Source: Antedon mediterranea (lineage: Eukaryota; Animalia; Echinodermata). From it: 64,000 nt of DNA. Below, in pieces: positions 25,234 to 64,000 of the stretch. Location: contig NC_092677.1 in NCBI RefSeq assembly GCF_964355755.1, forward strand, positions 23,609,175-23,673,174. The letters are read 5' to 3'. Below the pieces are notes generated by a model that worked only from the letters and a program-made list of their open reading frames with translations, made no database searches and was not told the DNA's origin. The position numbers were made by a program, and so were the translations under genes. Each line of letters begins with the position of its first letter. The stretch's first letter is position 1.

Positions 25234-28200
25234 TATAAATAGTTGCTTGTACAGCTTGCTGATGAAAACCGTTAGCACAGGTGTAATTCAGAGCTTAAGA
25301 AAATGGTAATTAAAATGACTGTTTTGGTTTATTTATTCACAGTGATCCCAGTCACCGAACTAACCAATCAGAACAATTATAATTTCAGAATAATGCAGAG
25401 CGCGGTGTTTAAGAAGTTGTTGCGTATTAAGGTACATCATCAAATCTAAAACTTCCACGCCTATTTTCAGTGATTTAACAACCCGTTCAATTTGAATAAC
25501 AATTAGAATCAACAGCATTTTACGATTATTTCGATAAACCATGAGGTATATGAAAATAAATGGATCTGATGAAGTTTGTAGCCGGGAAATAACAATACAG
25601 AAACCATTAAATAAAAAATTACTAACAAAGTATAAAAATAATGGATGAGTTGTTGGAACATAATATTACAGGAGGGTCATAGACTGTGTATAACAGCGTC
25701 AACCATGATATGTATGTTTCAATTCCCATTTTATTTTCAACCTGCCTATGGAACAAAAACTAACATGAAAAATAATAGAAGAAAATAATGTAGCCCGCTT
25801 AGCTAAGTTGGTAGGGCATCATTAACCTGAGAATCACGGGTTCAAGCTTCCAATATCTTTCAAGTGCATTTTATACCATAGGACAATTGAAATAAAAAAA
25901 AATTATGATAATGAAAAAATGGTATTTAAACAAAGCCCGGTAAGCTCAATCGGTAGAGCATCAGACTTTTAATGTGAGCGTCAAGGGTTGAAGTCCATTA
26001 TTGGGCGTATATGTTTTTTGCTTCCATTATCTTTCAAGTCAATTTTATACTTTAGGCCAATAGAAATTTAAAAAAAACATCTAAGAATGAGAACAAGGTA
26101 TTTATATGAAGCCCGGTTAGCTCAGTAGGTAGAGCATCAGACTTTTAATCTGAGGGTCAAGGGTTCAAATCCCTTATTGGGCGTATTTGTTTTTGCTTCC
26201 ATTATCTTTCAAGTCTATTTTATACTTTAGGCCAATTGAAATAAAACAAACGTCTAAGAATAAGAACATGGCTTTTATGTGAAGCCCGGTTAGCTCACTT
26301 GGTAGAGCATCAGAGTTTTAATCTGAGGGTCAAGGGTTCAAGTCCCTTATTGGACGTGTTTGTTTTTTGCTTCCATTATCTTTGAAGTTAATTTTATACT
26401 TTAGGCCAATAGAAATTTTTAAGAAAAAGTCTAAGAATGAGAACAAGTTGTTTATATGAAGCCCGGTTAGCTCAGTTGGTAGAGCATCAGACTTTGAATG
26501 TGATGGTCAAGGGTTCAAGTCCCTTATTGGGCGTATATGTTTTTTGCTTCCACTATCTTTGAAGTCAATTTTATACTTCAGGCCAGAATGAGAACAAGGT
26601 ATTTTTATGAACCCCGGTTAGCTCAGTAGGTAGAGCATCAGACTTTTAATCTGACGGTCAAGGGTTAAAGCCCGGTCAAGGGTTAAAGCCCGTTATTGGG
26701 CGTACTCCTTTTTTGCTTCCATTATCGTTCAAGTCAATTTTATTCTTTAGGCCAATAGAAATAAAAAAAAAAAAAACGTTTAAGAATGAGAACAAGGTAT
26801 TTATATGAAGCCCGCTTAGCTCAGTTGGTAGAGCTTCAGACTTTTAATCTGAGGGTCAAGAGTTCAAGTCCCTTATTGGGCGTATTTGTTTTTTGCTTCC
26901 ATTATCTTTCAAGTCAATTTTATACTTTAGGCCAATTGAAATTAAAAAAAAACGTCTAAGAATGAGAACAAGGTAGTTATATGAAGCCCGGTTAGCTCAG
27001 TTGGTAGAGCATCAGACTTTTAATCTGAGGGTCAAGGGTTCAAATCCCTTATTGAGCGTATATGTTTTTTGCTTCCATTATTCTTTGAAGTCAATTTTAT
27101 ACTTTAGGCCAATTGAAATTTTAAAAAAAAACGTCTAAGAATGAGAACAAGGTATTTATATGAAGCCCGGTTAGCTCAGTTGGTAGAGCATAAGACTTTT
27201 AATCTGAAGGTCAAGGGTTCAAATCCCTTATTGGGCTTTTTTCGAGTTTTGCTTCCATTATCGTACAAGTCAATTTTATACTCCAGGCCAATTGAAATAA
27301 AACAAACTTCTAAGAATGAGAATAATGTATTTATATGAAGCTCGGTTAGCTCAGTTGGTAGCGCAAAAGACTTTTAATCTGAGGTCAAGGATTAAAGCCC
27401 GTTATTTGGCGTATTCCTTTTTTGCTCCCATTATCGTTCAAGTCAATTTTATACTTTAGGCCAATAGAAATAAAAAAAAACCGTCTAAGAATGAGAACAA
27501 GGTATTTATATGAAGCCCGGTTAGCTCAGTTGGTAGAGATCAGACTTTTAATCTGAGGGTCAAGGGTTCAAGTCCCTTATTGGGCGTACAGTATTTGTTT
27601 TTTGCCTCCATTATCTTTCAAGTCAATTTTATACTTTAGGCCAATTGAAATTTCAAATAAACGTCTAAGAATGAGAACAAGGTAGTTATATGAAGCCCGG
27701 TTAGCTCAGTTGGTAGAGCATCAGACTTTTAATCTGAGGGTCAAGGGTTCAAGTCCCTTATTGGGCGTATATGTTCTTTGCTTCCATTATCTTTGAAGTC
27801 AATTTTATACTTCAGGCCAATAAAAATATAAAAAAAACGTCTAAGAATGAGAACAATGTAATTATATGAAGCCCGGTTAGCTCAGTAGGTAGAGCCTCAA
27901 ACTTTTAATCTGATTGTCAAGGGTTCAAATCCCTTATTGGGCGTATTCGTTTTTGCTTCCATTATCTTTCAAGTCTATTTTATACTTTAGGCCAATTGAA
28001 ATAAAACAAATGTCTAAGAATAAGAACATGGCTTTTATATAAAGCCCGGTTAGCTCAGTTGGTAGAGCATCAGACTTTTAATCTGAGGGTGAGGGGTTCA
28101 AGTCCCTTATTGGGCGTATTTGTTTTTGCTTCCATTATCTTTGAAGTCAATTTTATACTTTAGGCCAATAGAAATTTAAAAAAAACGTCTAAGAATGAGA

Positions 28201-31200
28201 ACAAGGTGTTTATATGAAGCCCGGTTAGCTCAGTTGGTAGAGCATCAGACTTTTAATCTGAGGGTCAAGGGTTTAAATCCCTTATTGGGCGTGTATGTTT
28301 TTTGCTTCCATTATCTTTGAAGTCAATTTTATACTTTAGGCGAATAGAAATTTAAAAAAAACGTCTAAGAATGAGAACAAGGTATTTATTTGAAGCCCGG
28401 TTACCTCAGTTGGTAGAGCATCAGACTTTTAATCTGAGGGTAAAGGGTTCAAATCCCTTATTGGGCTTTTTTTCGAGTTTTGCTTCCATTATCGTACAAG
28501 TCAATTTTATACTCCAGGCCAATTGAAATAAAACAAACTTCTAAGAATGAGAATAATGTATTTATATGAAGCTCGGTTAGCTCAGTTGGTAGCGCAAAAG
28601 ACTTTTAATCTGAGGTCAAGGATTAAAGCCCGTTATTTGGCATATTCCTTTTTTGCTCCCATTATCGTTCAAGTCAATTTTTTATACTTTAGGCCAATTG
28701 AAATAACAAACTTCTAAGAATGAGAACAAGGTATTTATATGAGGCTCGGTTAGCTCAGTTGGTAGCGCAAAAGACTTTTAATCTGAGGTCAAGGGTTAAA
28801 GCCCGTTATTCGGCGTATTCCTTTTTGGCTTCCATTATTGTTCAAGTCAATTTTATACTTTAGGCCAATAGAAATAAAAAAAAACCGTCTAAGAATGAGA
28901 ACAAGGTATTTATATGAAGCCCGGTTAGCTCAGTTGGTAGAGCATCAGACGTTTAATCTGGGGGTCAAGGGTTCAAATCCCTTAATGGGCGTATTTGTTT
29001 TTGCTTCCATTATCTTTGAAGTCAATTTTATACTTTAGTCCAATAGAAATTTAAAAAAAAACGTCTAAGAATGAGAACAAGGTATTCATATGAAGCCCGG
29101 TTAGCTCAGTTGGTAGAGCATCAGACTTTTAATCTGAGGGTCAAGGGTTCAAGTCCCTTATTGGGCGTATTTGTTTTTTGCTTCCATTATCTTTCAAGGT
29201 AATTTTATACTTTAGGCCAATTGAAATTAAAAAAAAAACGTCTAAGAATGAGAACAAGGTGATAATATGAAGCCCGGTTAGCTCATTTGGTAGAGCATCA
29301 GACTTTTAATCTGAGGGTCAAGGGTTCAAATCCCTTATTGGGCGTATATGTTTTTTGCTTCCATTATCTTTGAAGTCAATTTTATACTTTAAGCGAATAG
29401 AAATTTAAAAAAAACGTCTAAGAATGAGAACAAGGTATTTATATGAAGCCCGGTTACCTCAGTTGGTAGAGCATCAGACTTTTAATCTGAGGGTAAAGGG
29501 TTCAAATCCCTTATTGGGCTTATTGGAGTTTTGCTTCCATTATCGTTCAAGTCAATTTTATACTTTAGGCCAATTGAAATAAAACAAACTTCTAAGAATG
29601 AGAACAAGGTATTTATATGAGGCTCGGTTAGCTCAGTTGGTAGCGCAAAAGACTTTTAATCTGAGGTCAAGGGTTAAAGCCCATTATTCGGCGTATTCCT
29701 TTTTGGCTTCCATTATCGTCCAAGTCAATTTTATACCTTAGGCCAATAGAAGTAAAAAAAAAAAACGTCTAAGAATGAGAACAAGGTATTTATATGAAGC
29801 CCGGTTAGCTCAGTTGGTAGAGCATCAGACTTTTAATCTGAGGGTCAAGGGTTCAAGTCCCTTATTGGGCGTATTTGTTTTTTGCTTCCATTATCTTTCA
29901 AGTCAATTTTATACTTTAGGCCAATTGAAATTTAAAAAAACGTCTAAGAATGAGAACAAGGTGTTTAAATGAAGCCCGGTTAGCTCAGTTGGTGGAGCAT
30001 CAGACTTTTAATCTGAGGGTCAAGGGTTCAAATCCCTTATTGGGCGTGTATGTTTTTTGCTTCCATTATCTTTCAAGGTAATTTTATACTTTAGGCCAAT
30101 TGAAATTTAAAAAAAACGTCTAAGAATGAGAACAAGGTGATAATATGAAGACCGGTTAGCTCATTTGGTAGAGCATCAGACTTTTAATCTGAGGGTCAAG
30201 GGTTCAAATCCCTTATTGGGCGTATATGTTTTTTGCTTCCATTATCTTTGAAGTCAATTTTATACTTTAGGCGAATAGAAATTTAAAAAAAACGTCTAAG
30301 AATGAGAACAATGTATTTATATGAAGCCCGGTTACCTCAGTTGGTAGAGCATCAGACTTTTAATCTGAGGGTAAAGGGTTCAAATCCCTTATTGGGCTTA
30401 TTGGAGTTTTGCTTCCATTATCGTTCAAGTCAATTTTATACTTTAGGCCAATTGAAATAAAACAAACTTCTAAGAATGAGAACAAGGTATTTATATGAGG
30501 CTCGGTTAGCTCAGTTGGTAGCGCAAAAGACTTTTAATCTGAGGTCAAGGGTTAAAGCCCATTATTCGGCGTATTCCTTTTTGGCTTCCATTATCGTCCA
30601 AGTCAATTTTATACCTTAGGCCAATAGAAGTAAAAAAAAAAAACGTCTAAGAATGAGAACAAGGTATTTATATGAAGCCCGGTTAGCTCAGTTGGTAGAG
30701 CATCAGACTTTTAATCTGAGGGTCAAGGGTTCAAGTCCCTTATTGGGGGTATTTGTTTTTTGCTTCCATTATCTTTCAAGTCAATTTTATACTTTAGGCC
30801 AATTGAAATTTAAAAAAAACGTCTAAGAATGAGAACAAGGTGTTTATATGAAGCCCGGTTAGCTCAGTTGGTAGAGCATCAGACTTTTAATCTGAGGGTC
30901 AAGGGTTCAAATCTCTTATTGGGCGTGTATGTTTTTTGCTTCCATTATCTTTGAAGTCAATTTTATACTTTAGGCGAATAGAAATTTAAAAAAAACGTCT
31001 AAAAATGAGAACAAGGTATTTATATGAAGCCCGGTTACGTCAGTTGGTAGAGCATCAGACTTTTAATCTGAGGGTCAAGGGTTCAAATCCCTTATTGGGC
31101 TTTTTTCGAGTTTTGCTTCCATTATCGTACAAGTCAATTTTATACTCCAGGCCAATTGAAATAAAACAAACTTCTAAGAATGAGAATAACGTATTTATAT

Positions 31201-42100: not shown

Positions 42101-43213
42101 CTTTTAATCTGAGGGTCAAGGGTTCAAATCCCTAATTGGGCGTATTCGTTTTTGCTTCCATTATCTTTCAAGTCTATTTTATACTTTAGGCCAATTGAAA
42201 TAAAACAAACGTCTAGGAATAAGAACATGGCTTTTATATGAAGCCCGGTTAGCTCAGTTGGTAGAGCATCAGACTTTTAATCTGAGGGTCAAGGGTTCAA
42301 GTCCTTTATTGGGCGTATTTGTTTTTTGCTTCCATTATCTTTGAAGTTAATTTTATACTTTTGGCCAATAAAATTATTAAGAAAAAGTCTAAGAATGAGA
42401 ACAAGTTGTTTATATGAAGCCCGGTTAGCTCAGTTGGTAGAGCATCAGACTTTTAATCTGAGGGTCAAGGGTTCAAATCCCTTATTGGGCGTATTCGTTT
42501 TTGCTTCCATTATCTTTCAAGTCTATTTTATACTTTAGGCCAATTGAAATAAAACAAACGTCTAAGAATAAGAACATGGCTTTTATATGAAGCCCGGTTA
42601 GCTCAGTTGGTAGAGCATCAGACTTTTAAACTGAGGGTCAAGGGTTCAAGTCCCTTAATGGGCGTATTTGTTTTTTGCTTCCATTATCTTTGAAGTCAAT
42701 TTCATACTTTAGGCCAATTGAAATTTAAAAAAAAACGTCTAAGAATGAGAACAAGGTATTTATATGAAGCCCGGTTAGCTCAGTTGGTAGAGCATCAGAC
42801 TTTTAATCTGAGGGTCAAGGGTTCAAATCCCTTATTGGGCGTATATGTTTTTTGCTTCCATTATCTTTGAAGTCAATTTTATACTTTAGGCCAATAGAAA
42901 TTTTAAAAAAACGTCTAAGAATGAGAACAAGGTATTTATATGAAGCCCGGTTACCTCAGTTGGTAGAGCATCAGACTTTTAATCTGAGGGTAAAGGGTTC
43001 AAATCCTTTATTGGGCTTATTCGAGTTTTGCTTACATTATCGTTCAAGTCAATTTTATACTTTAGGCCAATTGAAATAAAACAAACTTCTGAGAATGAGA
43101 ACAAGGTATTTATATGAGGCTCGGTTAGCTCAGTTGGTAGCACAAAAGACTTTTAATCTGAGGTCAAAGGTTAAAGCCCGTTATTCGGCGTATTCCTTTT
43201 TGGCTTCCATTAT

Positions 43214-43734: not shown

Positions 43735-46700
43735 ATACTTTAGGCCAATTGAAATTTAAAAAAAATGTCTAAGAATGAGAACAAGGTAGTTATATGAAGC
43801 CCGGTTAGCTCAGTTGGTAGAGCATCAGACTTTTAAACCGAGGGTCAAGGGTTAAAGTCCTTTAATGGGCGTATTTGTTTTTTGCTTCCATTATCTTTGA
43901 AGTCAATTTTATACTTTAGGCCAATAGAAATTTAAAAAAAACGTCTACGAATGAGAACAAGGTATTTATATGAAGCCCGGTTAGCTCAGTTGGTAGAGCA
44001 TCAGACTTTTAATCAGAGGGTCAAGGGTTCAAGTCCCTTATTGGGCGTATTTGTTTTTTGCTTCCATTATCTTTCAAGTCAATTTGATACTTTAGGCCAA
44101 TTGAAATTTAAAAAAAACATCTAAGAATGAGAACAAGGTATTTATATGAAGCCCGGTTAGCTCAGTTGGTAGAGCATCAGACTTTTAAGCTGAGGGTCAA
44201 GGTTTCAAGTCCCTTATTGGGCGTATTGTTTTTTTGCTTCCATTATCTTTCAAGTCAATTTTATTCTTTAGGCCAATTGAAATTTAAAAAAAACGTCTAA
44301 GAATGAGAACAATGTATTTATATGAAGCTCGGTTAGCTCAGTTGGTAGCGCAAAAGACTTTTAATCTGAGGTCAAGGATTAAAGCCCGTTATTTGGCGTA
44401 TTCCTTTTTTGCTCCCATTATCGTTCAAGTCAATTTTATACTTTAGGCCAATAGAAATAAAAAAAAACCGTCTAAGAATGAGAACAAGGTATTTATATGA
44501 AGCCCGGTTAGCTCAGTAGGTAGAGCATCAGACTTTTAATCTGAGGGTCAAGGGTTCAAATCCCTTATTGGGCGTATTCGTTTTTGCTTCTATTATCTTT
44601 CAAGTCTATTTTATACTTTAGGCCAATTGAAATAAAACAAACCTCTAAGAATAAGAACATGGCTTTTATATGAAGCCCGGTTAGCTCAGTTGGTAGAGCA
44701 TCAGACTTTTAATCTGAGGGTCAAGGGTTCAAGCCCCTTATTGGGCGTATTTCTTTTTTGCTTCCATTATCTTTGAAGTCAATTTTATACTTTAGGCCAA
44801 TAGAAATTTAAAAAAAACGTCTAAGAATGAGAACAAGGTATTTATATGAAGCCCGGTTACCTCAGTTGGTAGAGCATCAGACTTTTAATCTGAGGGTAAA
44901 GGGTTCAAATCCTTTATTGGGCTTATTCGAGTTTTGCTTCAATTATCGTTCAAGTCAATTTTATACTTTAGGCCAATTGAAATAAAACAAACTTCTGAGA
45001 ATGAGAACAAGGTATTTATATGAGGCTCGGTTAGCTCAGTTGGTAGCGCAAAAGACTTTTAATCTGAGGTCAAGGGTTAAAGCCCGTTATTCGGCGTATT
45101 CCTTTTTGGCTTCCATTATCGTTCAAGTCAATTTTATACCTTAGGCCAATAGAAGTTAAAAAAAAACGTGTAAGAATGAGAACAAGGTATTTATATGAAG
45201 CCCGGTTAGCTCAGTTGGTAGAGCATCAGACTTTTAATCTGAGGGTCAAGGGTTCAAATCCCTTATTGGGCGTATTCGTTTTTGCTTCCATTATCTTTCA
45301 AGTCTATTTTATTCTTTAGGCCAATTGAAATAAAAAAACGTCTAAGAATGAGAACAAGATATTTATATGAAGCCCGGTTAGCTCAGTTGGTAGAGCATCA
45401 GACTTTTAATCTGAGTGTCAAGGGTTCAAGTCCCTTATTGGGCGTATTTGTTTTTTGCTTCCATTATCTTTCAAGTCAATTTTATACTTTAGGCCAATTG
45501 AAATTTTAAAAAAAAGTCTAAGAATGAGAACAAGGTATTTATATGAAGCCCGGTTAGCCCAGTTGGTGGAGCATCAGACTTTTAATCTGAGGGTCAAGGG
45601 TTCAAGTCCCTTAATGGGCGTATTTGTTTTTTGCTTCCATTATCTTTCAAGTCAATTTTATACTTTAGGCCAATAGAAATTTAAAAAAACGTCTAAGAAT
45701 GAGAACAATGTATTTATATGAAGCCCGGTTACCTCAGTTGGTAGAGCATCAGTCTTTTAATCTGAGGGTAAAGGGTTCAAATCCCTTATTGGGCTTATTC
45801 GAGTTTTGCTTCCATTATCGTTCAAGTCAATTTTATACTTTAGGCCAATTGAAATAAAACAAACTTCTAAGAATGAGAACAAGGTATTTATATGAGGCTC
45901 GGTTAGCTCAGTTGGTAGCGCAAAAGACTTTTAATCTGAGGTCAAGGGTTAAAGCCCGTTATTCGGCGTATTCCTTTTTGGCTTCCATTATCGTTCAAGT
46001 CAATTTTATACCTTAGGCCAATAGAAGTAAAAAAAAAAACGTCTAAGACTGAGAACAAGGTATTTATATGAAGCCCGGTTAGTTCAGTTGGTAGAGCATC
46101 AGACTTTTAATCTGAGGTCAAGGGTTAAAGCCCGTTATTGGGCGTATTCCTTTTTTGCTTCCATTATCGTTCAAGTCAATTTTATTCTTTAGGCCAATAG
46201 AAATAAAAAAAAAACGTCTAAGAATGAGAACAAGATATTTATATGAAGCCCGGTTAGCTCAGTTGGTAGAGCATCAGACTTTTAATCTGAGGGTCAAGGG
46301 TTCAAGTCCCTTATTGGGCGTATTTGTTTTTTGCTTCCATTATTTTTCAAGTCAATTTTATACTTTAGGCCAATTGAAATTTAAAAAAAATGTCTAAGAA
46401 TGAGAACAAGGTAGTTATATGAAGCCCGGTTAGCGCAGTTGGTAGAGCATCAGACGTTTAAACTGAGGGTCAAGGGTTCAAGTCCCTTAATGGGCGTATT
46501 TGTTTTTGCTTCCATTATCTTTCAAGTCTATTTTATACTTTAGGCCAATTGAAATAAAAAAACGTCTAAGAATGAGAACAAGATATTTATATGAAGCCCG
46601 GTTAGCTCAGTTGGTAGAGCATCAGACTTTTAATCTGAGGGTCAAGGGTTCAAGTCCCTTAATGGGCATATTTGTTTTTTGCTTCCATTATCTTTCAAGT

Positions 46701-49700
46701 CAATTTTATACTTTAGGCCAATTGAAATTTAAAAAAAAACGTCTAAGAATGAGAACAAGGTAGTTATATGAAGCCCGGTTACCTCAGTTGGTAGAGCATC
46801 AGACTTTTAATCTGAGGGTAAAGGGTTCAAATCCTTTATTAGGCTTATTCGAGTTTTGCTTCAATTATCGTTCAAGTCAATTTTATACTTTAGGCCAATT
46901 GAAATAAAACAAACTTCTGAGAATGAGAACAAGGTATTTATATGAGGCTCGGTTAGCTCAGTTGGTAGCGCAAAAGACTTTTAATCTGAGGTCAAGGGTT
47001 AAAGCCCGTTATTCGGCGTATTCCTTTTTGGCTTCCATTATCTTTCAAGTCAATTTTATTCTTTAGGCCAATTGAAATTTAAAAAAAACGTCTAAGAATG
47101 AGAACAATGTATTTATATGAAGCTCGGTTAGCTCAGTTGGTAGCGCAAAAGACTTTTAATCTGAGGTCAAGGATTAAAGCCCGTTATTTGGCGTATTCCT
47201 TTTTTGCTCCCATTATCGTTCAAGTCAATTTTATACTTTAGGCCAATAGAAATAAAAAAAAACCGTCTAAGAATGAGAACAAGGTATTTATATGAAGCCC
47301 GGTTAGCTCAGTAGGTAGAGCATCAGACTTTTAATCTGAGGGTCAAGGGTTCAAATCCCTTATTGGGCGTATTCGTTTTTGCTTCTATTATCTTTCAAGT
47401 CTATTTTATACTTTAGGCCAATTGAAATAAAACAAACGTCTAAGAATAAGAACATGGCTTTTATATGAAGCCCGGTTAGCTCAGTTGGTAGAGCATCAGA
47501 CTTTTAATCTGAGGGTCAAGGTTTCAAGCCCCTTATTGGGCGTATTTCTTTTTTGCTTCCATTATCTTTGAAGTTAATTTTATACTTTAGGCCAATAAAA
47601 TTATTAAGAAAAAGTCAAAGAATGAGAACAAGGTATTTATATGAAGCCCGGTTAGCTCAGTTGGTAGAGCATCAGACTTTTAATCTGAGGGCCAAGGGTT
47701 CAAATCCCTTATTGGGCGTATATGTTTTTTGCTTCCATTATCTTTGAAGTCAATTTTATACTTTAGGCCAATAGAAATTTAAAAAAAACGTCTAAAAATG
47801 AGAACAAGGTATTTATATGAAGCCCGGTTACCTCAGTTGGTAGAGCATCAGACTTTTAATCTGAGGGTAAAGGGTTCAAATCCTTTATTAGGCTTATTCG
47901 AGTTTTGCTTCAATTATCGTTCAAGTCAATTTTATACTTTAGGCCAATTGAAATAAAACAAACTTCTGAGAATGAGAACAAGGTATTTATATGAGGCTCG
48001 GTTAGCTCAGTTGGTAGCGCAAAAGACTTTTAATCTGAGGTCAAGGGTTAAAGCCCGTTATTCGGCGTATTCCTTTTTGGCTTCCATTATCGTTCAAGTC
48101 AATTTTATACCTTAGGCCAATAGAAGTTAAAAAAAAACGTCTAAGAATGAGAACAAGGTATTTATATGAAGCCCGGTTAGCTCAGTTGGTAGAGCATCAG
48201 ACTTTTAATCTGAGGGTCAAGGGTTCAAATCCCTTATTGGGCGTATTCGTTTTTGCTTCCATTATCTTTCAAGTCTATTTTATTCTTTAGGCCAATTGAA
48301 ATAAAAAAACGTCTAAGAATGAGAACAAGATATTTATATGAAGCCCGGTTAGCTCAGTTGGTAGAGCATCAGACTTTTAATCTGAGTGTCAAGGGTTCAA
48401 GTCCCTTATTGGGCGTATTTGTTTTTTGCTTCCATTATCTTTCAAGGTAATTTTATACTTTAGGCCAATTGAAATTTAAAAAAAAAGTCTAAGAATGAGA
48501 ACAAGGTATTTATATGAAGCCCGGTTAGCCCAGTTGGTAGAGCATCAGACTTTTAATCTGAGGGTCAAGGGTTCAAGTCCTTTAATGGGCGTATTTGTTT
48601 TTTGCTTCCATTATCTTTCAAGTCAATTTTATACTTTAGGCCAATAGAAATTTAAAAAAACGTCTAAGAATGAGAACAAGGTATTTATATGAAGCCCGGT
48701 TAGCTCAGTTGGTAGAGCATCAGACTTTTAATCTGAGGGTCAAGGGTTCAAATCCCTTATTGGGCGTATTCGTTTTTGCTTCCATTATCTTTCAAGTCTA
48801 TTTTATTCTTTAGGCCAATTGAAATAAAAAAACGTCTAAGAATGAGAACAAGATATTTATATGAAGCCCGGTTAGCTCAGTTGGTAGAGCATCAGACTTT
48901 TAATCTGAGTGTCAAGGGTTCAAGTCCCTTATTGGGCGTATTTGTTTTTTGCTTCCATTATCTTTCAAGGTAATTTTATACTTTAGGCCAATTGAAATTT
49001 AAAAAAAAAGTCTAAGAATGAGAACAAGGTATTTATATGAAGCCCGGTTAGCCCAGTTGGTAGAGCATCAGACTTTTAATCTGAGGGTCAAGGGTTCAAG
49101 TCCCTTAATGGGCGTATTTGTTTTTTGCTTCCATTATCTTTCAAGTCAATTTTATACTTTAGGCCAATAGAAATTTAAAAAAACGTCTAAGAATGAGAAC
49201 AAGGTATTTATATGAAGCCCGGTTACCTCAGTTGGTAGAGCATCAGTCTTTTAATCTGAGGGTAAAGGGTTCAAATCCCTTATTGGGCTTATTCGAGTTT
49301 TGCTTCCATTATCGTTCAAGTCAATTTTATACTTTAGGCCAATTGAAATAAAACAAACTTCTAAGAATGAGAACAAGGTATTTATATGAGGCTCGGTTAG
49401 CTCAGTTGGTAGCGCAAAAGACTTTTAATCTGAGGTCAAGGGTTAAAGCCCGTTATTCGGCGTATTCCTTTTTGGCTTCCATTATCGTTCAAGTCAATTT
49501 TATACCTTAGGCCAATAGAAGTAAAAAAAAAACGTCTAAGACTGAGAACAAGGTATTTATATGAAGCCCGGTTAGTTCAGTTGGTAGAGCATCAGACTTT
49601 TAATCTGAGGTCAAGGGTTAAAGCCCGTTATTGGGCGTATTCCTTTTTTGCTTCCATTATCGTTCAAGTCAATTTTATTCTTTAGGCCAATAGAAATAAA

Positions 49701-52700
49701 AAAAAAACGTCTAAGAATGAGAACAAGATATTTATATGAAGCCCGGTTAGCTCAGTTGGTAGAGCATCAGACTTTTAATCTGAGGGTCAAGGGTTCAAGT
49801 CCCTTATTGGGCGTATTTGTTTTTTGCTTCCATTATTTTTCAAGTCAATTTTATACTTTAGGTTAATTGAAATTTAAAAAAAATGTCTAAGAATGAGAAC
49901 AAGGTAGTTATATGAAGCCCGGTTAGCGCAGTTGGTAGAGCATCAGACGTTTAAACTGAGGGTCAAGGGTTCAAGTCCCTTAATGGGCGTATTTGTTTTT
50001 TGCTTCCATTATCTTTGAAGTCAATTTTATACTTTAGGCCAATAGAAATTTTTAAAAAAACGTCTAAGAATGAGAACCAGGTATTTATATGAAGCCCGGT
50101 TAGCTCAGTTGGTAGAGCATCAGACTTTTAATCTGAGGGTTAAGGGTTCAAGTCCCTTAATGGGCATATTTGTTTTTTGCTTCCATTATCTTTCAAGTCA
50201 ATTTTATACTTTAGGCCAATTGAAATTTTAAAAAAAACGTCTAAGAATGAGAACAAGGTAGTTATATGAAGCCCGGTTAGCTCAGTTGGTAGAGCATCAG
50301 ACTTTTAAGCTGAGGGTCAAGGTTTCAAGTCCCTTATTGGGCGTATTTGTTTTTTGCTTCCATTATCTTTCAAGTCAATTTTATACTTTAGGCCAATAAA
50401 ATTATTAAGAAAAAGTCTAAGAATGAGAACAAGTTGTTTATATGAAGCCCGGTTAGCTCAGTTGGTAGAGCATCAGACTTTTAATCTGAGGGTCAAGGGT
50501 TCAAATCCCTTATTGGGCATATTCGTTTTTGCTTCCATTATCTTTCAAGTTTTTTTTATACTTTAGGCCAATTGAAATAAAACAAACGTCTAAGAATAAG
50601 AACATGGCTTTTATATGAAGCCCGGTTAGCTCAGTTGGTAGAGCATCAGACTTTTAAACTGAGGGTCAAGGGTTCAAGTCCCTTAATGGGCGTATTTGTT
50701 TTTTGCTTCCATTATCTTTGAAGTCAATTTTATACTTTAGGCCAATTGAAATTTTAAAAAAACGTCTAAGAATGAGAACAAGGTATTTATATGAAGCCCG
50801 GTTAGCTCAGTTGGTAGAGCATCAGACTTTTAATCTGAGGGTCAAGGGTTCAAATCCCTTATTGGGCGTATATGTTTTTTGCTTCCATTATCTTTGAAGT
50901 CAATTTTATACTTTAGGCCAATAGAAATTTAAAAAAAACGTCTAAGAATGAGAACAAGGTATTTATAAGAAGCCCGGTTACCTCAGTTGGTAGAGCATCA
51001 GACTTTTAATCTGAGGGTAAAGGGTTCAAATCCTTTATTGGGCTTATTCGAGTTTTGCTTCCATTATCGTTCAAGTCAATTTTATACTTTAGGCCAATTG
51101 AAATAAAACAAACTTCTGAGAATGAGAACAAGGTATTTATATGAGGCTCGGTTAGCTCAGTTGGTAGCGCAAAAGACTTTTAATCTGAGGTCAAGGGTTA
51201 AAGCCCGTTATTCGGCGTATTCCTTTTTGGCTTCCATTATCGTTCAAGTCAATTTTATACCTTAGGCCAATAGAAGTTAAAAAAAAACGTCTAAGAATGA
51301 GAACAAGGTATTTATATGAAGCCCGGTTAGCTCAGTTGGTAGAGCATCAGACTTTTAATCTGAGGGTCAAGGGTTCAAATCCCTTATTGGGCGTATTCGT
51401 TTTTGCTTCCATTATATTTCAAGTCTATTTTATACTTTAGGCCAATTGAAATAAAAAAACGTCTAAGAATGAGAACAAGATATTTATATGAAGCTCGGTT
51501 AGCTCAGTTGGTAGAGCATCAGACTTTTAATCTGAGGGTCAAGGGTTCAAGTCCCTTATTGGGCGTATTTGTTTTTTGCTTCCATTATCTTTCAAGTCAA
51601 TTTTATACTTTAGGCCAATTGAAATTTAAAAAAAATGTCTAAGAATGAGAACAAGGCAGTTCTATGAAGCCCGGTTAGCTCAGTTGGTAGAGCATCAGGC
51701 TTTTAAACCGAGGGTCAAGGGTTCAAGTCCCTTATTGGGCGTATTTGTTTGTTGCTTCCATTATCTTTGAAGTTAATTTTATACTTTAGGCCAATAGAAA
51801 TTTTTAAGAAAAAGTCAAAGAATGAGAACAAGTTGTTTATATGAAGCCCGGTTAGCTCAGTTGGTAGAGCATCAGACTTTTAATCTGAGGGTCAAGGGTT
51901 CAAGTCCCTTATTGGGTGTATTGGTTTTTTGCTTCCATTATCTTTCAAGTCAATTATACTTTAGGCCAATTGAAATTTAAAAAAAATGTCTAAGAATGAG
52001 AACAAGGTATTTATATGAAGCCCGGTTAGCACAGTTGGTAGAGCATCAGACTTTTAATCTGAGGGTCAAGGGTTCAAGTCCCTTATTCGGTGTATTGGTT
52101 TTTTGCTTCCATTATCTTTCAAGTCAATTTTATACTTTAGGCCAATTGAAATTTAAAAAAAATGTCTAAGAATGAGAACAAGGTAGTTATATGAAGCCCG
52201 GTTAGCTCAGTTGGTAGAGCATCAGACTTTTAAACCGAGGGTCAAGGGTTAAAGTCCTTTAATGGGCGTATTTGTTTTTTGCTTCCATTATCTTTGAAGT
52301 CAATTTTATACTTTAGGCCAATAGAAATTTAAAAAAAACGTCTACGAATGAGAACAAGGTATTTATATGAAGCCCGGTTAGCTCAGTTGGTAGAGCATCA
52401 GACTTTTAATCAGAGGGTCAAGGGTTCAAGTCCCTTATTGGGCGTATTTGTTTTTTGCTTCCATTATCTTTCAAGTCAATTTGATACTTTAGGCCAATTG
52501 AAATTTAAAAAAAACATCTAAGAATGAGAACAAGGTATTTATATGAAGCCCGGTTAGCTCAGTTGGTAGAGCATCAGACTTTTAAGCTGAGGGTCAAGGT
52601 TTCAAGTCCCTTATTGGGCGTATTGTTTTTTTGCTTCCATTATCTTTCAAGTCAATTTTATTCTTTAGGCCAATTGAAATTTAAAAAAAACGTCTAAGAA

Positions 52701-55700
52701 TGAGAACAATGTATTTATATGAAGCTCGGTTAGCTCAGTTGGTAGCGCAAAAGACTTTTAATCTGAGGTCAAGGATTAAAGCCCGTTATTTGGCGTATTC
52801 CTTTTTTGCTCCCATTATCGTTCAAGTCAATTTTATACTTTAGGCCAATAGAAATAAAAAAAAACCGTCTAAGAATGAGAACAAGGTATTTATATGAAGC
52901 CCGGTTAGCTCAGTAGGTAGAGCATCAGACTTTTAATCTGAGGGTCAAGGGTTCAAATCCCTTATTGGGCGTATTCGTTTTTGCTTCTATTATCTTTCAA
53001 GTCTATTTTATACTTTAGGCCAATTGAAATAAAACAAACCTCTAAGAATAAGAACATGGCTTTTATATGAAGCCCGGTTAGCTCAGTTGGTAGAGCATCA
53101 GACTTTTAATCTGAGGGTCAAGGGTTCAAGCCCCTTATTGGGCGTATTTCTTTTTTGCTTCCATTATCTTTGAAGTCAATTTTATACTTTAGGCCAATAG
53201 AAATTTAAAAAAAACGTCTAAGAATGAGAACAAGGTATTTATATGAAGCCCGGTTACCTCAGTTGGTAGAGCATCAGACTTTTAATCTGAGGGTAAAGGG
53301 TTCAAATCCTTTATTGGGCTTATTCGAGTTTTGCTTCAATTATCGTTCAAGTCAATTTTATACTTTAGGCCAATTGAAATAAAACAAACTTCTGAGAATG
53401 AGAACAAGGTATTTATATGAGGCTCGGTTAGCTCAGTTGGTAGCGCAAAAGACTTTTAATCTGAGGTCAAGGGTTAAAGCCCGTTATTCGGCGTATTCCT
53501 TTTTGGCTTCCATTATCGTTCAAGTCAATTTTATACCTTAGGCCAATAGAAGTTAAAAAAAAACGTGTAAGAATGAGAACAAGGTATTTATATGAAGCCC
53601 GGTTAGCTCAGTTGGTAGAGCATCAGACTTTTAATCTGAGGGTCAAGGGTTCAAATCCCTTATTGGGCGTATTCGTTTTTGCTTCCATTATCTTTCAAGT
53701 CTATTTTATTCTTTAGGCCAATTGAAATAAAAAAACGTCTAAGAATGAGAACAAGATATTTATATGAAGCCCGGTTAGCTCAGTTGGTAGAGCATCAGAC
53801 TTTTAATCTGAGTGTCAAGGGTTCAAGTCCCTTATTGGGCGTATTTGTTTTTTGCTTCCATTATCTTTCAAGTCAATTTTATACTTTAGGCCAATTGAAA
53901 TTTTAAAAAAAAGTCTAAGAATGAGAACAAGGTATTTATATGAAGCCCGGTTAGCCCAGTTGGTAGAGCATCAGACTTTTAATCTGAGGGTCAAGGGTTC
54001 AAGTCCCTTAATGGGCGTATTTGTTTTTTGCTTCCATTATCTTTCAAATCAATTTTATACGTTAGGCCAATAGAAATTTAAAAAAACGTCTAAGAATGAG
54101 AACAATGTATTTATATGAAGCCCGGTTACCTCAGTTGGTAGAGCATCAGTCTTTTAATCTGAGGGTAAAGGGTTCAAATCCCTTATTGGGCTTATTCGAG
54201 TTTTGCTTCCATTATCGTTCAAGTCAATTTTATACTTTAGGCCAATTGAAATAAAACAAACTTCTAAGAATGAGAACAAGGTATTTATATGAGGCTCGGT
54301 TAGCTCAGTTGGTAGCGCAAAAGACTTTTAATCTGAGGTCAAGGGTTAAAGCCCGTTATTCGGCGTATTCCTTTTTGGCTTCCATTATCGTTCAAGTCAA
54401 TTTTATACCTTAGGCCAATAGAAGTAAAAAAAAAAACGTCTAAGACTGAGAACAAGGTATTTATATGAAGCCCGGTTAGTTCAGTTGGTAGAGCATCAGA
54501 CTTTTAATCTGAGGTCAAGGGTTAAAGCCCGTTATTGGGCGTATTCCTTTTTTGCTTCCATTATCGTTCAAGTCAATTTTATTCTTTAGGCCAATAGAAA
54601 TAAAAAAAAAACGTCTAAGAATGAGAACAAGATATTTATATGAAGCCCGGTTAGCTCAGTTGGTAGAGCATCAGACTTTTAATCTGAGGGTCAAGGGTTC
54701 AAGTCCCTTATTGGGCGTATTTGTTTTTTGCTTCCATTATTTTTCAAGTCAATTTTATACTTTAGGCCAATTGAAATTTAAAAAAAATGTCTAAGAATGA
54801 GAACAAGGTAGTTATATGAAGCCCGGTTAGCGCAGTTGGTAGAGCATCAGACGTTTAAACTGAGGGTCAAGGGTTCAAGTCCCTTAATGGGCGTATTTGT
54901 TTTTGCTTCCATTATCTTTCAAGTCTATTTTATACTTTAGGCCAATTGAAATAAAAAAACGTCTAAGAATGAGAACAAGATATTTATATGAAGCCCGGTT
55001 AGCTCAGTTGGTAGAGCATCAGACTTTTAATCTGAGGGTCAAGGGTTCAAGTCCCTTAATGGGCATATTTGTTTTTTGCTTCCATTATCTTTCAAGTCAA
55101 TTTTATACTTTAGGCCAATTGAAATTTAAAAAAAAACGTCTAAGAATGAGAACAAGGTAGTTATATGAAGCCCGGTTACCTCAGTTGGTAGAGCATCAGA
55201 CTTTTAATCTGAGGGTAAAGGGTTCAAATCCTTTATTAGGCTTATTCGAGTTTTGCTTCAATTATCGTTCAAGTCAATTTTATACTTTAGGCCAATTGAA
55301 ATAAAACAAACTTCTGAGAATGAGAACAAGGTATTTATATGAGGCTCGGTTAGCTCAGTTGGTAGCGCAAAAGACTTTTAATCTGAGGTCAAGGGTTAAA
55401 GCCCGTTATTCGGCGTATTCCTTTTTGGCTTCCATTATCTTTCAAGTCAATTTTATTCTTTAGGCCAATTGAAATTTAAAAAAAACGTCTAAGAATGAGA
55501 ACAATGTATTTATATGAAGCTCGGTTAGCTCAGTTGGTAGCGCAAAAGACTTTTAATCTGAGGTCAAGGATTAAAGCCCGTTATTTGGCGTATTCCTTTT
55601 TTGCTCCCATTATCGTTCAAGTCAATTTTATACTTTAGGCCAATAGAAATAAAAAAAAACCGTCTAAGAATGAGAACAAGGTATTTATATGAAGCCCGGT

Positions 55701-58700
55701 TAGCTCAGTAGGTAGAGCATCAGACTTTTAATCTGAGGGTCAAGGGTTCAAATCCCTTATTGGGCGTATTCGTTTTTGCTTCTATTATCTTTCAAGTCTA
55801 TTTTATACTTTAGGCCAATTGAAATAAAACAAACGTCTAAGAATAAGAACATGGCTTTTATATGAAGCCCGGTTAGCTCAGTTGGTAGAGCATCAGACTT
55901 TTAATCTGAGGGTCAAGGTTTCAAGCCCCTTATTGGGCGTATTTCTTTTTTGCTTCCATTATCTTTGAAGTTAATTTTATACTTTAGGCCAATAAAATTA
56001 TTAAGAAAAAGTCAAAGAATGAGAACAAGGTATTTATATGAAGCCCGGTTAGCTCAGTTGGTAGAGCATCAGACTTTTAATCTGAGGGCCAAGGGTTCAA
56101 ATCCCTTATTGGGCGTATATGTTTTTTGCTTCCATTATCTTTGAAGTCAATTTTATACTTTAGGCCAATAGAAATTTAAAAAAAAACGTCTAAAAATGAG
56201 AACAAGGTATTTATATGAAGCCCGGTTACCTCAGTTGGTAGAGCATCAGACTTTTAATCTGAGGGTAAAGGGTTCAAATCCTTTATTAGGCTTATTCGAG
56301 TTTTGCTTCAATTATCGTTCAAGTCAATTTTATACTTTAGGCCAATTGAAATAAAACAAACTTCTGAGAATGAGAACAAGGTATTTATATGAGGCTCGGT
56401 TAGCTCAGTTGGTAGCGCAAAAGACTTTTAATCTGAGGTCAAGGGTTAAAGCCCGTTATTCGGCGTATTCCTTTTTGGCTTCCATTATCGTTCAAGTCAA
56501 TTTTATACCTTAGGCCAATAGAAATTTAAAAAAAACGTCTACGAATGAGAACAAGGTATTTATATGAAGCCCGGTTAGCTCAGTTGGTAGAGCATCAGAC
56601 TTTTAATCAGAGGGTCAAGGGTTCAAGTCCCTTATTGGGCGTATTTGTTTTTTGCTTCCATTATCTTTCAAGTCAATTTGATACTTTAGGCCAATTGAAA
56701 TTTAAAAAAAACATCTAAGAATGAGAACAAGGTATTTATATGAAGCCCGGTTAGCTCAGTTGGTAGAGCATCAGACTTTTAAGCTGAGGGTCAAGGTTTC
56801 AAGTCCCTTATTGGGCGTATTGTTTTTTTGCTTCCATTATCTTTCAAGTCAATTTTATTCTTTAGGCCAATTGAAATTTAAAAAAAACGTCTAAGAATGA
56901 GAACAATGTATTTATATGAAGCTCGGTTAGCTCAGTTGGTAGCGCAAAAGACTTTTAATCTGAGGTCAAGGATTAAAGCCCGTTATTTGGCGTATTCCTT
57001 TTTTGCTCCCATTATCGTTCAAGTCAATTTTATACTTTAGGCCAATAGAAATAAAAAAAAACCGTCTAAGAATGAGAACAAGGTATTTATATGAAGCCCG
57101 GTTAGCTCAGTAGGTAGAGCATCAGACTTTTAATCTGAGGGTCAAGGGTTCAAATCCCTTATTGGGCGTATTCGTTTTTGCTTCTATTATCTTTCAAGTC
57201 TATTTTATACTTTAGGCCAATTGAAATAAAACAAACCTCTAAGAATAAGAACATGGCTTTTATATGAAGCCCGGTTAGCTCAGTTGGTAGAGCATCAGAC
57301 TTTTAATCTGAGGGTCAAGGGTTCAAGCCCCTTATTGGGCGTATTTCTTTTTTGCTTCCATTATCTTTGAAGTCAATTTTATACTTTAGGCCAATAGAAA
57401 TTTAAAAAAAACGTCTAAGAATGAGAACAAGGTATTTATATGAAGCCCGGTTACCTCAGTTGGTAGAGCATCAGACTTTTAATCTGAGGGTAAAGGGTTC
57501 AAATCCTTTATTGGGCTTATTCGAGTTTTGCTTCAATTATCGTTCAAGTCAATTTTATACTTTAGGCCAATTGAAATAAAACAAACTTCTGAGAATGAGA
57601 ACAAGGTATTTATATGAGGCTCGGTTAGCTCAGTTGGTAGCGCAAAAGACTTTTAATCTGAGGTCAAGGGTTAAAGCCCGTTATTCGGCGTATTCCTTTT
57701 TGGCTTCCATTATCGTTCAAGTCAATTTTATACCTTAGGCCAATAGAAGTTAAAAAAAAACGTGTAAGAATGAGAACAAGGTATTTATATGAAGCCCGGT
57801 TAGCTCAGTTGGTAGAGCATCAGACTTTTAATCTGAGGGTCAAGGGTTCAAATCCCTTATTGGGCGTATTCGTTTTTGCTTCCATTATCTTTCAAGTCTA
57901 TTTTATTCTTTAGGCCAATTGAAATAAAAAAACGTCTAAGAATGAGAACAAGATATTTATATGAAGCCCGGTTAGCTCAGTTGGTAGAGCATCAGACTTT
58001 TAATCTGAGTGTCAAGGGTTCAAGTCCCTTATTGGGCGTATTTGTTTTTTGCTTCCATTATCTTTCAAGTCAATTTTATACTTTAGGCCAATTGAAATTT
58101 TAAAAAAAAGTCTAAGAATGAGAACAAGGTATTTATATGAAGCCCGGTTAGCCCAGTTGGTAGAGCATCAGACTTTTAATCTGAGGGTCAAGGGTTCAAG
58201 TCCCTTAATGGGCGTATTTGTTTTTTGCTTCCATTATCTTTCAAGTCAATTTTATACTTTAGGCCAATAGAAATTTAAAAAAACGTCTAAGAATGAGAAC
58301 AATGTATTTATATGAAGCCCGGTTACCTCAGTTGGTAGAGCATCAGTCTTTTAATCTGAGGGTAAAGGGTTCAAATCCCTTATTGGGCTTATTCGAGTTT
58401 TGCTTCCATTATCGTTCAAGTCAATTTTATACTTTAGGCCAATTGAAATAAAACAAACTTCTAAGAATGAGAACAAGGTATTTATATGAGGCTCGGTTAG
58501 CTCAGTTGGTAGCGCAAAAGACTTTTAATCTGAGGTCAAGGGTTAAAGCCCGTTATTCGGCGTATTCCTTTTTGGCTTCCATTATCGTTCAAGTCAATTT
58601 TATACCTTAGGCCAATAGAAGTAAAAAAAAAAACGTCTAAGACTGAGAACAAGGTATTTATATGAAGCCCGGTTAGTTCAGTTGGTAGAGCATCAGACTT

Positions 58701-61700: not shown

Positions 61701-64000
61701 AATGGGCGTATTTGTTTTTTGCTTCCATTATCTTTCAAGTCAATTTTATACTTTAGGCCAATAGAAATTTAAAAAAACGTCTAAGAATGAGAACAAGGTA
61801 TTTATATGAAGCCCGGTTACCTCAGTTGGTAGAGCATCAGTCTTTTAATCTGAGGGTAAAGGGTTCAAATCCCTTATTGGGCTTATTCGAGTTTTGCTTC
61901 CATTATCGTTCAAGTCAATTTTATACTTTAGGCCAATTGAAATAAAACAAACTTCTAAGAATGAGAACAAGGTATTTATATGAGGCTCGGTTAGCTCAGT
62001 TGGTAGCGCAAAAGACTTTTAATCTGAGGTCAAGGGTTAAAGCCCGTTATTCGGCGTATTCCTTTTTGGCTTCCATTATCGTTCAAGTCAATTTTATACC
62101 TTAGGCCAATAGAAGTAAAAAAAAAACGTCTAAGACTGAGAACAAGGTATTTATATGAAGCCCGGTTAGTTCAGTTGGTAGAGCATCAGACTTTTAATCT
62201 GAGGTCAAGGGTTAAAGCCCGTTATTGGGCGTATTCCTTTTTTGCTTCCATTATCGTTCAAGTCAATTTTATTCTTTAGGCCAATAGAAATAAAAAAAAA
62301 ACGTCTAAGAATGAGAACAAGATATTTATATGAAGCCCGGTTAGCTCAGTTGGTAGAGCATCAGACTTTTAATCTGAGGGTCAAGGGTTCAAGTCCCTTA
62401 TTGGGCGTATTTGTTTTTTGCTTCCATTATTTTTCAAGTCAATTTTATACTTTAGGTTAATTGAAATTTAAAAAAAATGTCTAAGAATGAGAACAAGGTA
62501 GTTATATGAAGCCCGGTTAGCGCAGTTGGTAGAGCATCAGACGTTTAAACTGAGGGTCAAGGGTTCAAGTCCCTTAATGGGCGTATTTGTTTTTTGCTTC
62601 CATTATCTTTGAAGTCAATTTTATACTTTAGGCCAATAGAAATTTTTAAAAAAACGTCTAAGAATGAGAACCAGGTATTTATATGAAGCCCGGTTAGCTC
62701 AGTTGGTAGAGCATCAGACTTTTAATCTGAGGGTTAAGGGTTCAAGTCCCTTAATGGGCATATTTGTTTTTTGCTTCCATTATCTTTCAAGTCAATTTTA
62801 TACTTTAGGCCAATTGAAATTTTAAAAAAAACGTCTAAGAATGAGAACAAGGTAGTTATATGAAGCCCGGTTAGCTCAGTTGGTAGAGCATCAGACTTTT
62901 AAGCTGAGGGTCAAGGTTTCAAGTCCCTTATTGGGCGTATTTGTTTTTTGCTTCCATTATCTTTCAAGTCAATTTTATACTTTAGGCCAATAAAATTATT
63001 AAGAAAAAGTCTAAGAATGAGAACAAGTTGTTTATATGAAGCCCGGTTAGCTCAGTTGGTAGAGCATCAGACTTTTAATCTGAGGGTCAAGGGTTCAAAT
63101 CCCTTATTGGGCATATTCGTTTTTGCTTCCATTATCTTTCAAGTTTTTTTTATACTTTAGGCCAATTGAAATAAAACAAACGTCTAAGAATAAGAACATG
63201 GCTTTTATATGAAGCCCGGTTAGCTCAGTTGGTAGAGCATCAGACTTTTAAACTGAGGGTCAAGGGTTCAAGTCCCTTAATGGGCGTATTTGTTTTTTGC
63301 TTCCATTATCTTTGAAGTCAATTTTATACTTTAGGCCAATTGAAATTTTAAAAAAACGTCTAAGAATGAGAACAAGGTATTTATATGAAGCCCGGTTAGC
63401 TCAGTTGGTAGAGCATCAGACTTTTAATCTGAGGGTCAAGGGTTCAAATCCCTTATTGGGCGTATATGTTTTTTGCTTCCATTATCTTTGAAGTCAATTT
63501 TATACTTTAGGCCAATAGAAATTTAAAAAAAACGTCTAAGAATGAGAACAAGGTATTTATAAGAAGCCCGGTTACCTCAGTTGGTAGAGCATCAGACTTT
63601 TAATCTGAGGGTAAAGGGTTCAAATCCTTTATTGGGCTTATTCGAGTTTTGCTTCCATTATCGTTCAAGTCAATTTTATACTTTAGGCCAATTGAAATAA
63701 AACAAACTTCTGAGAATGAGAACAAGGTATTTATATGAGGCTCGGTTAGCTCAGTTGGTAGCGCAAAAGACTTTTAATCTGAGGTCAAGGGTTAAAGCCC
63801 GTTATTCGGCGTATTCCTTTTTGGCTTCCATTATCGTTCAAGTCAATTTTATACCTTAGGCCAATAGAAGTTAAAAAAAAACGTCTAAGAATGAGAACAA
63901 GGTATTTATATGAAGCCCGGTTAGCTCAGTTGGTAGAGCATCAGACTTTTAATCTGAGGGTCAAGGGTTCAAATCCCTTATTGGGCGTATTCGTTTTTGC
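43735..64000. repeat. Long higher-order repeat domain: A(~43.9-48.1 kb) B(~48.1-52.3) A(~52.3-56.5) A(~56.5-60.7) B(60.7-end)
   Basis: Identical variant ORFs recur at offsets 8397, 4197 and 12594 (45282/53679/57876; 47553/55950/60147; 50354/62948), equal to 48, 24 and 72 monomers. Confidence 0.9.
49741..49813 (+). tRNA. tRNA-Lys(UUU), representative consensus-type array copy (one of dozens that fold fully)
   Basis: 73 nt cloverleaf: acceptor GCCCGGT/ATTGGGC with two G-U pairs, D stem GCTC/GAGC, anticodon stem TCAGA/TCTGA, T stem AAGGG/CCCTT, downstream T6. Confidence 0.85.

What the first reader, a model, noticed from the sequence alone, without database searches (positions are those of the whole stretch)
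25793..64000. A 38 kb+ satellite built from a single tRNA-Lys(UUU) gene at nucleosome-length period
Seen: about 215-220 same-strand monomers of ~175 bp; many fold as complete tRNAs with A/B boxes and a T-run terminator, interleaved with disabled copies. Known: single-species tRNA arrays exist, but a 171-178 bp AT-rich monomer with higher-order repeats is the architecture of centromeric satellites (alpha satellite, CEN178), and TFIIIC-bound tDNAs act as chromatin barriers and condensin sites. Inference: this is either a Pol III dosage array for AAA decoding in an AT-rich genome or a tRNA gene co-opted as structural, possibly (peri)centromeric, satellite DNA.
Basis: partly seen in the sequence, partly recalled or inferred. 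Interest (0 to 1): 0.85.

Follow-up and report, generated by a model that had tools for sequence, protein, structure and literature searches.

The report
Lysine tRNA gene drifting into satellite
In a feather star genome, one lysine tRNA gene with its short flanks is copied head to tail at least 218 times; only about a quarter of the copies look fully intact and mutations hit gene and spacer at nearly the same rate, so the array is likely drifting like satellite DNA rather than marking a centromere.

Summary
In detail: 218 same-strand monomers (mode 176 bp) run from 25793 off the window end. Each is a 73-nt tRNA-Lys(UUU) plus about 102 nt of its own flanks. The host is the crinoid Antedon mediterranea (two flanking proteins 100% identical to its records). 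Of 213 full-length monomers, 60 are strictly intact, 118 keep both promoter boxes, and 47 form one dead clade. Distinct mutations are as dense in the tRNA as in the spacer (79/73 vs 101/97 sites, p=0.82); some other tests hint at weak constraint. Solitary tRNA-Lys copies nearby match the majority tRNA at 72/73 and share parts of the spacer. There is no fixed higher-order unit, only nested block duplications. Best reading: a local tRNA gene amplified by unequal crossing-over, now drifting near-neutrally. The centromere idea has no positive support: an annotated gene starts 560 bp away, the array is GC-richer than its flank, there is no 10-bp phasing, and the published sea-urchin nucleosome repeat is about 250 bp. 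It cannot be excluded without the genome or CENP-A data. Such arrays are known (Hydractinia, Phytophthora, Arabidopsis); the very short unit and satellite-like decay are the variant. No earlier scan finding matched.

The parts
25793..64000 (+). Tandem array of 218 tRNA-Lys(UUU) monomers, open at the window end; the first monomer (142 bp) is heavily decayed
29799..29871 (+). Example intact monomer gene: 73-nt tRNA-Lys(UUU), 21 stem pairs, A and B boxes
   Evidence: (72.2 bits)
29872..29973 (+). Example spacer (about 102 nt, 25% GC): T-run terminator and about 38 nt of 3' flank, then about 65 nt of 5' flank of the next gene including an A-tract
29448..29798 (+). Example C-B pair: damaged class C monomer (G10C, C48A, G73T) followed by dead class B monomer (G44 deleted, C56A, broken anticodon stem); 31 of 32 C monomers are followed by B
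43210..43366 (-). 157-bp insertion in monomer 100 ending in a (TAA)n tail; resembles a 5'-truncated LINE 3' end (inferred); single copy in the window
43975..51406 (+). Block repeated at 56569-64000 with 1 mismatch in 7432 bp (offset 12,594 bp = 72 monomers)
52372..56568 (+). 24-monomer block (4.2 kb), 99.8-99.9% identical to the blocks starting at 43975 and 56569
2146..2218 (+). Solitary tRNA-Lys(UUU): 72/73 identical to the array majority (G1A); its upstream 65 nt match the array spacer at 54/62
4502..4759 (+). Two decayed tRNA-Lys relics about 186 bp apart; the 3' flank of the second matches the spacer at 31/38
17194..17266 (+). Solitary intact-looking tRNA-Lys(UUU): 72/73 identical to the array majority (G5A, giving an A-U pair); flanks mostly unrelated
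   Evidence: (74.8 bits)
24496..25233 (-). Context: main exon of a divergent forkhead-domain gene annotated in A. mediterranea (P0048), starting 560 bp from the array
10508..13246 (+). Context: NACHT-LRR (NLR) exon, 100% identical to A. mediterranea P0001 on a 28,587,047-bp contig

Best explanation
The array is 218 or more head-to-tail copies of one tRNA-Lys(UUU) gene with its own short flanks, likely amplified in place by unequal crossing-over and now likely evolving almost neutrally, like a young satellite. Shown: the unit is about 65 nt of 5' flank + 73 nt gene + terminator and about 38 nt of 3' flank; related solitary and decayed copies lie within 24 kb; copies are about 5.5% from the majority in both gene and spacer; dead and damaged clades were amplified along with intact ones; blocks of 24 and 72 monomers were duplicated very recently. 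Inferred: a working gene seeded the array (the majority tRNA is a perfect cloverleaf, nearly identical to its solitary neighbours while the flanks have diverged); with many redundant copies, selection on each copy is weak; the 176-bp period reflects the breakpoints of the founding duplication, not nucleosome fitting. The 60 intact copies could still be transcribed by Pol III, or the block could be silenced; neither was tested.
For: Distinct alleles 79/73 tRNA sites vs 101/97 spacer sites, p=0.82. Parsimony events 1.90 vs 1.92 per site. Outside the dead clade 73/73 vs 90/97, p=0.64. Singletons 29/73 vs 24/97. Dead clade B is 47 of 213, and 31 of 32 C monomers are followed by B. 428 of 1035 common-site pairs fail the four-gamete test, indicating exchange between monomers. 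Block copies are 99.8-99.99% identical. Private substitutions are highest at the left edge: 1.25 per monomer in monomers 1-15 vs 0.03 in 152-218. Spacer homology to solitary copies. Precedent: the Arabidopsis 81-gene tRNA array was modelled by unequal crossing-over under neutral drift (PMC2886086, abstract and one results section).
Against: Several tests lean toward some constraint on the tRNA. Alleles seen twice or more are 0.73 of the base-matched expectation (Poisson p=0.012, permutation p=0.075). Among 122 distinct haplotypes the tRNA is 5.1% vs spacer 5.9% from the majority (paired p=0.016), and 3.4% vs 5.9% after removing clade B (post hoc, copies not independent). 25% of haplotypes have at most one tRNA change vs 7.8% for spacer subsamples (P=0.008; pooled-column permutation P=0.10). 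The anticodon stays TTT in 212 of 213. Only the left 38 kb of the array was seen.
Confidence: 0.6

Rival explanations
1. A selected Pol III dosage array: the intact subset supplies extra tRNA-Lys(UUU), possibly stage-specifically such as for yolky eggs, and dead copies are birth-and-death by-products, as with 5S arrays (that analogy is recalled, not from a call).
For: 60 of 213 strictly intact, 59 of them with T5 or longer; weak constraint signals; local exons favour AAA over AAG (47:20 and 14:6, but 8:9 in the Fox exon); another feather star has 11,013 tRNA predictions (PMC13079724, table passage); Hydractinia arrays cover tRNAs for all 20 amino acids (PMC11067881, passage).
Against: 153 of 213 copies fail strict intactness; mutation density is equal in gene and spacer by allele and parsimony counts; dead clade B was amplified to 22%; clustered tDNAs with intact promoters are silenced in Arabidopsis (PMC7544208, passages).
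Confidence: 0.25
2. A tRNA gene co-opted as structural (peri)centromeric or boundary satellite, with TFIIIC-bound B boxes organising chromatin.
For: Monomer near 171-178 bp; nested higher-order blocks; homogeneity rises away from the edge; B box intact in 143 of 213; a human tRNA VNTR is implicated as a boundary (PMC4041453, abstract); a 1986 paper title says plant small tandem repeats likely came from a tRNA gene (title seen only in a reference list).
Against: Annotated genes 560 bp and 12.5 kb from the edge; array GC-richer than flank; no 10-11 bp phasing; B box and other critical sites not significantly protected (permutation p=0.12-0.19); sea-urchin nucleosome repeat about 250 bp by gel (bioRxiv 10.1101/2025.05.12.653534, passages; no crinoid value seen); monomer length is not a conserved centromere trait (PMC4053949).
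Confidence: 0.1
3. The array is real but its right part is inflated by assembly: the near-identical blocks would be false duplications.
For: 7432 bp with a single mismatch between 43975 and 56569.
Against: Monomers 1-103 contain no long near-identical block (longest run 8 monomers); the 24-mer copies differ by 5-6 substitutions plus an indel; 133 distinct monomer sequences.
Confidence: 0.05

Closest known systems
Hydractinia (and Nematostella) tandem tRNA arrays (PMC11067881 passages; PMC2888827 passages)
   Same: Marine invertebrate; evenly spaced arrays of tens to hundreds of similar tRNA copies with similar spacers.
   Different: [quoted passage not shown]
Phytophthora infestans single-tRNA arrays (PMC9584435 passages)
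   Same: Same-gene tandem arrays at one locus, e.g. 271 tRNA-Cys copies; attributed to unequal crossing-over.
   Different: 513-nt unit and, by the authors' words, much less sequence divergence than their effector families; here a 176-nt unit with dead clades and nested blocks.
Arabidopsis Ser-Tyr-Tyr and Cys tDNA clusters (PMC2886086 abstract and section 17; PMC7544208 passages; PMC10701932 search listing)
   Same: Local expansion, mix of functional and non-functional copies, copy number argued to drift neutrally.
   Different: 81 genes in triplet units, or 0.4-kb units; shown to be methylated and silenced, which is untested here.
Alpha satellite / CEN178-type centromeric satellite (PMC4053949 passages; details recalled)
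   Same: Monomer size, about 91% pairwise monomer identity, higher-order blocks.
   Different: No centromeric evidence; a gene abuts the edge; the monomer is a recognisable, often intact Pol III gene.
Human 1q23.3 tRNA VNTR (PMC4041453 abstract)
   Same: Tandem tRNA repeat with unstable copy number.
   Different: 7.3-kb GC-rich unit, 9-43 copies, tRNAs under 6% of the unit and conserved while the spacer is not.

Membership tests
Single-species tandem tRNA gene array | Head-to-tail copies of one tRNA gene with homologous spacers, tens to hundreds of units | tested here: met
   218 monomers, all + strand, anticodon TTT in 212 of 213
Single-species tandem tRNA gene array | Units carry a complete cloverleaf, A/B boxes and a terminator | tested here: met
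   Met by the majority sequence and 60 of 213 copies; both boxes in 118 of 213
Selected dosage array | Gene more conserved than spacer | tested here: inconclusive
   Equal by allele and parsimony counts; weak excess conservation in other tests
Selected dosage array | Pol III occupancy and mature tRNA from array copies | not testable with these tools
   Needs ChIP/CUT&RUN and tRNA-seq
Centromeric satellite (alpha/CEN178 type) | CENP-A/CENH3 binding | not testable with these tools
   No chromatin data available
Centromeric satellite (alpha/CEN178 type) | Very large arrays on most chromosomes | not testable with these tools
   No whole genome held; right end not seen
Centromeric satellite (alpha/CEN178 type) | Higher-order repeat structure | tested here: met
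   Irregular nested blocks of 24, 48 and 72 monomers and a recurring C-B pair; no fixed unit
Centromeric satellite (alpha/CEN178 type) | 10-bp AA/TT phasing, AT-rich relative to surroundings | tested here: not met
   Phasing p=0.58; 35.5% vs 31.5% GC
Centromeric satellite (alpha/CEN178 type) | Gene-poor flank | tested here: not met
   Left side only: Fox gene at 560 bp, NLR at 12.5 kb
Centromeric satellite (alpha/CEN178 type) | Monomer equals host nucleosome repeat length | tested here: inconclusive
   Sea urchin about 250 bp; no crinoid measurement seen
tRNA-derived SINE | tRNA-like head fused to an unrelated body and tail, dispersed | tested here: not met
   Full 73-nt tRNA followed directly by a T-run, tandem, with native flanks

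The most novel reading that the evidence does not exclude
An intact Pol III gene caught becoming a major structural satellite: the 176-bp tRNA-Lys monomer forms large arrays on several Antedon chromosomes and marks their centromeres or heterochromatin boundaries through TFIIIC-bound B boxes, with its solitary progenitor genes still beside it.
Probability: 0.08. Interest if true: 0.85.

Novelty: new variant of a known kind. Interest (0 to 1): 0.35.

Why it matters
It is a clean, measurable case of a gene-to-satellite transition: progenitor-like genes, decayed relics, intact and dead clades and fresh block duplications sit in one 64-kb window. It also warns that very high tRNA counts in crinoid assemblies (11,013 in Glyptometra) may largely be drifting arrays and not tRNA supply: ARAGORN accepts 172 monomers while 60 pass a strict check. 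If it proved centromeric, it would be an animal centromere built from a working gene, but nothing found here points that way.

Tried and rejected
Whole genome: none held, so chromosome position, total length and other loci are unknown. Read or contig depth over the array was not obtained, so genome-wide copy number and presence of the spacer in relatives stay open. 'Self-spacing' idea (dead monomers keep intact genes apart): no triple of intact copies and even spacing of dead ones look significant on all 218 (P=0.016, 0.035) but not on monomers 1-151 (0.09, 0.09) or 1-103 (0.35, 0.21), so rejected as a product of block duplication. 10-bp phasing: absent. CpG decay as a methylation sign: inconclusive; the C4-G5 site is invariant in 213 of 213, and array CpG o/e is 0.69 vs 0.97 in the flank. 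Fixed HOR period: none; best lags 24 and 48 have only 15% and 18% near-identical pairs. Rows dropped: 5 of 218 monomers outside 165-185 bp (142, 151, 198, 332 bp and the cut last one), and 5 homopolymer-length columns in the rate tests. Earlier scan findings: nothing in this genome or look-alike windows; word hits were other repeat types or prokaryotic tRNA fragments. Paper searches listed no description of this array or of crinoid centromeres; the library lacks most subscription papers. The 1986 tRNA-satellite paper was not held under its DOI. Hydractinia supplements held as text gave no array spacer table, so shorter units there cannot be excluded. PMC7290008, PMC2120018 and PMC10794172 passages added nothing usable.
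Full report
OBSERVATION. Tandem Repeats Finder reports one array at 25846-64000, period 176, 218.0 copies, 87% matches. Using one window tRNA as a probe gave 219 hits from 25793 on, all on the + strand; one is an 18-bp internal duplication, leaving 218 monomers, with 210 of 217 intervals at 172-177 bp. ARAGORN tRNAs in the array, 170 of them Lys(ttt); Rfam RF00005 reaches its gathering score 19 + 156 times there. The array runs off the window. It is 35.5% GC against 31.5% in the left flank; the tRNA part is 51% and the spacer 25% GC.

HOST AND CONTEXT. No whole genome is held. A NACHT-LRR exon at 10508-13246 is 100% identical to a protein named as Antedon mediterranea, a feather star, on a 28,587,047-bp contig. 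A forkhead-domain ORF is 100% identical to another annotated protein on a contig of the same length; its ATG at 25233 (minus strand) is 560 bp from the first monomer. The left edge therefore abuts annotated genes. The flank also holds segmental duplicates of 1.2-1.9 kb at 82-86% identity.

ANATOMY OF THE MONOMER. The majority monomer is 175 nt: a 73-nt tRNA whose 21 stem pairs all form (two G-U in the acceptor stem), a T-run, and an AT-rich spacer. The spacer is the gene's own flank. Its last 65 nt match the upstream of a solitary copy at 2146 at 54/62, and its first 40 nt match the downstream of a decayed copy at 4688 at 31/38. The solitary copies at 2146 and 17194 each differ from the majority tRNA at 1 of 73 positions, while the flanks of 17194 are largely unrelated (33/60 and 23/38). 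That contrast is the expected mark of a gene under selection before amplification (inference). A fainter relic lies about 186 bp before the 4688 copy, hinting at an older short tandem arrangement.

HOW MANY COPIES COULD WORK. Of 213 full-length monomers (5 of odd length set aside), 60 keep all stem pairs, all 19 checked conserved positions and no gap; 59 of these have T5 or longer. 143 keep the B box, 118 keep both boxes, and 34 match the majority apart from position 59. One dead clade of 47 carries a G44 deletion and C56A, mostly with a broken anticodon stem; a damaged class of 32 (G10C, C48A, G73T) precedes it in 31 of 32 cases. Intact copies average 632 bp apart.

SELECTION TESTS. For near-neutrality: mean pairwise identity 91.5% (tRNA) vs 90.7% (spacer); 79 distinct substitution alleles on 73 sites vs 101 on 97, p=0.82; parsimony events 1.90 vs 1.92 per site; outside the dead clade 73/73 vs 90/97, p=0.64; singletons 29/73 vs 24/97. 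Against: alleles seen at least twice are 0.73 of the base-matched expectation (Poisson p=0.012; permutation p=0.075), and critical sites are 0.70-0.76 (permutation p=0.12-0.19). Among 122 distinct haplotypes the tRNA is 5.1% and the spacer 5.9% from the majority (paired p=0.016); without the dead clade 3.4% vs 5.9%, a post hoc cut on non-independent copies; 25% of haplotypes have at most one tRNA change vs 7.8% in spacer subsamples (P=0.008; pooled permutation P=0.10). The dead clade's tRNA (12.9%) is twice as diverged as its spacer (6.0%), which suggests an older pseudogene carried into the array (inference). Reading: constraint is weak at most.

ARRAY DYNAMICS. There is no fixed higher-order unit; lags 24 and 48 stand out with only 15% and 18% near-identical pairs. 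7432 bp from 43975 recur at 56569 with one mismatch (offset 72 monomers), and a 24-monomer block occurs three times at 99.8-99.9%. 428 of 1035 common-site pairs show all four gametes. Private substitutions fall from 1.25 per monomer at the left edge to 0.03 in the last 66 monomers. This pattern is what unequal crossing-over and conversion produce in any tandem array (established model, recalled; applied to a tRNA array in PMC2886086, abstract).

THE CENTROMERE IDEA. The features that could be tested do not support it: genes at the edge, GC above the flank, no 10-11 bp AA/TT/TA signal (p=0.58). The 'nucleosome-length' argument is weak. Melters et al. found centromere monomer length not conserved and HORs in 76 of 171 species (PMC4053949, passages), and the sea urchin repeat length is about 250 bp by gel, shorter near promoters (bioRxiv 10.1101/2025.05.12.653534, passages); I saw no crinoid value. 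The unit is also about the size of a minimal Pol III gene with room for TFIIIB upstream (own knowledge). Only the left edge was seen, so a centromeric role is not excluded.

COMPARISON. [quoted passage not shown] Large clusters occur in Nematostella and teleosts (PMC2888827, passages). Phytophthora infestans has, for example, 271 tRNA-Cys copies on a 513-nt unit (PMC9584435, passages). In Arabidopsis the 81-gene array mixes functional and non-functional copies and was judged not dosage-driven (PMC2886086, section 17), and clustered tDNAs are silenced (PMC7544208, passages). Human 1q23.3 has a 7.3-kb unit (PMC4041453, abstract). Another feather star has 11,013 predicted tRNAs (PMC13079724, table passage), so arrays may be common in crinoids (inference). 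This array works like those and belongs with them. It differs by a unit shorter than any I saw in those papers and by satellite-like decay. Ten literature searches listed no description of it; Hydractinia's supplementary array tables were not found in the files held.

VERDICT. Real, and a new variant of a known kind. Near-neutral tDNA satellite 0.6, selected dosage array 0.25, structural or centromeric role 0.1, assembly inflation 0.05. Interest 0.35.

Noticed in passing
window 24496-25233 (-): Divergent forkhead-domain gene (Pfam E=7.5e-11); the homolog search found only its own A. mediterranea record (1 of 268 candidates at E<=1e-6), so it is a fast-evolving or lineage-specific Fox gene whose promoter region abuts the array.
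   Followed up: partly
window 9163-13246 (+): NLR gene of a crinoid-expanded NACHT-LRR family (47 hits, all Antedon or Anneissia); an upstream 187-aa ORF may be its death-fold exon (some paralogs carry PF01335), though it has no Pfam hit of that kind here.
   Followed up: partly
window 43210-43366 (-): Single 157-bp insertion in monomer 100 with a (TAA)n tail and a likely short target-site duplication; looks like a truncated LINE 3' end. It marks the left boundary of the youngest duplicated zone and is not copied in it.
   Followed up: partly
window 2604-4070, 15133-16559, 18831-19986: Three copies (82-86% identical) of a segment holding an acidic ORF fragment of about 140 aa with no Pfam hit (one copy tested); probably a transposon exon or duplicated gene piece.
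   Followed up: no
window 39091-39163 and 26461-26533: Anticodon-shifted monomers: one Lys(CUU) and one read as Gln(UUG) with a Lys body, showing the array can generate alloacceptor variants.
   Followed up: no
window 1017-1589 (+): 190-aa multi-pass membrane ORF without a Pfam hit; resembles an otopetrin-like exon by eye (recalled, untested).
   Followed up: no
window 5376-5715: Four tandem copies of an 86-bp unit at 96% identity.
   Followed up: no
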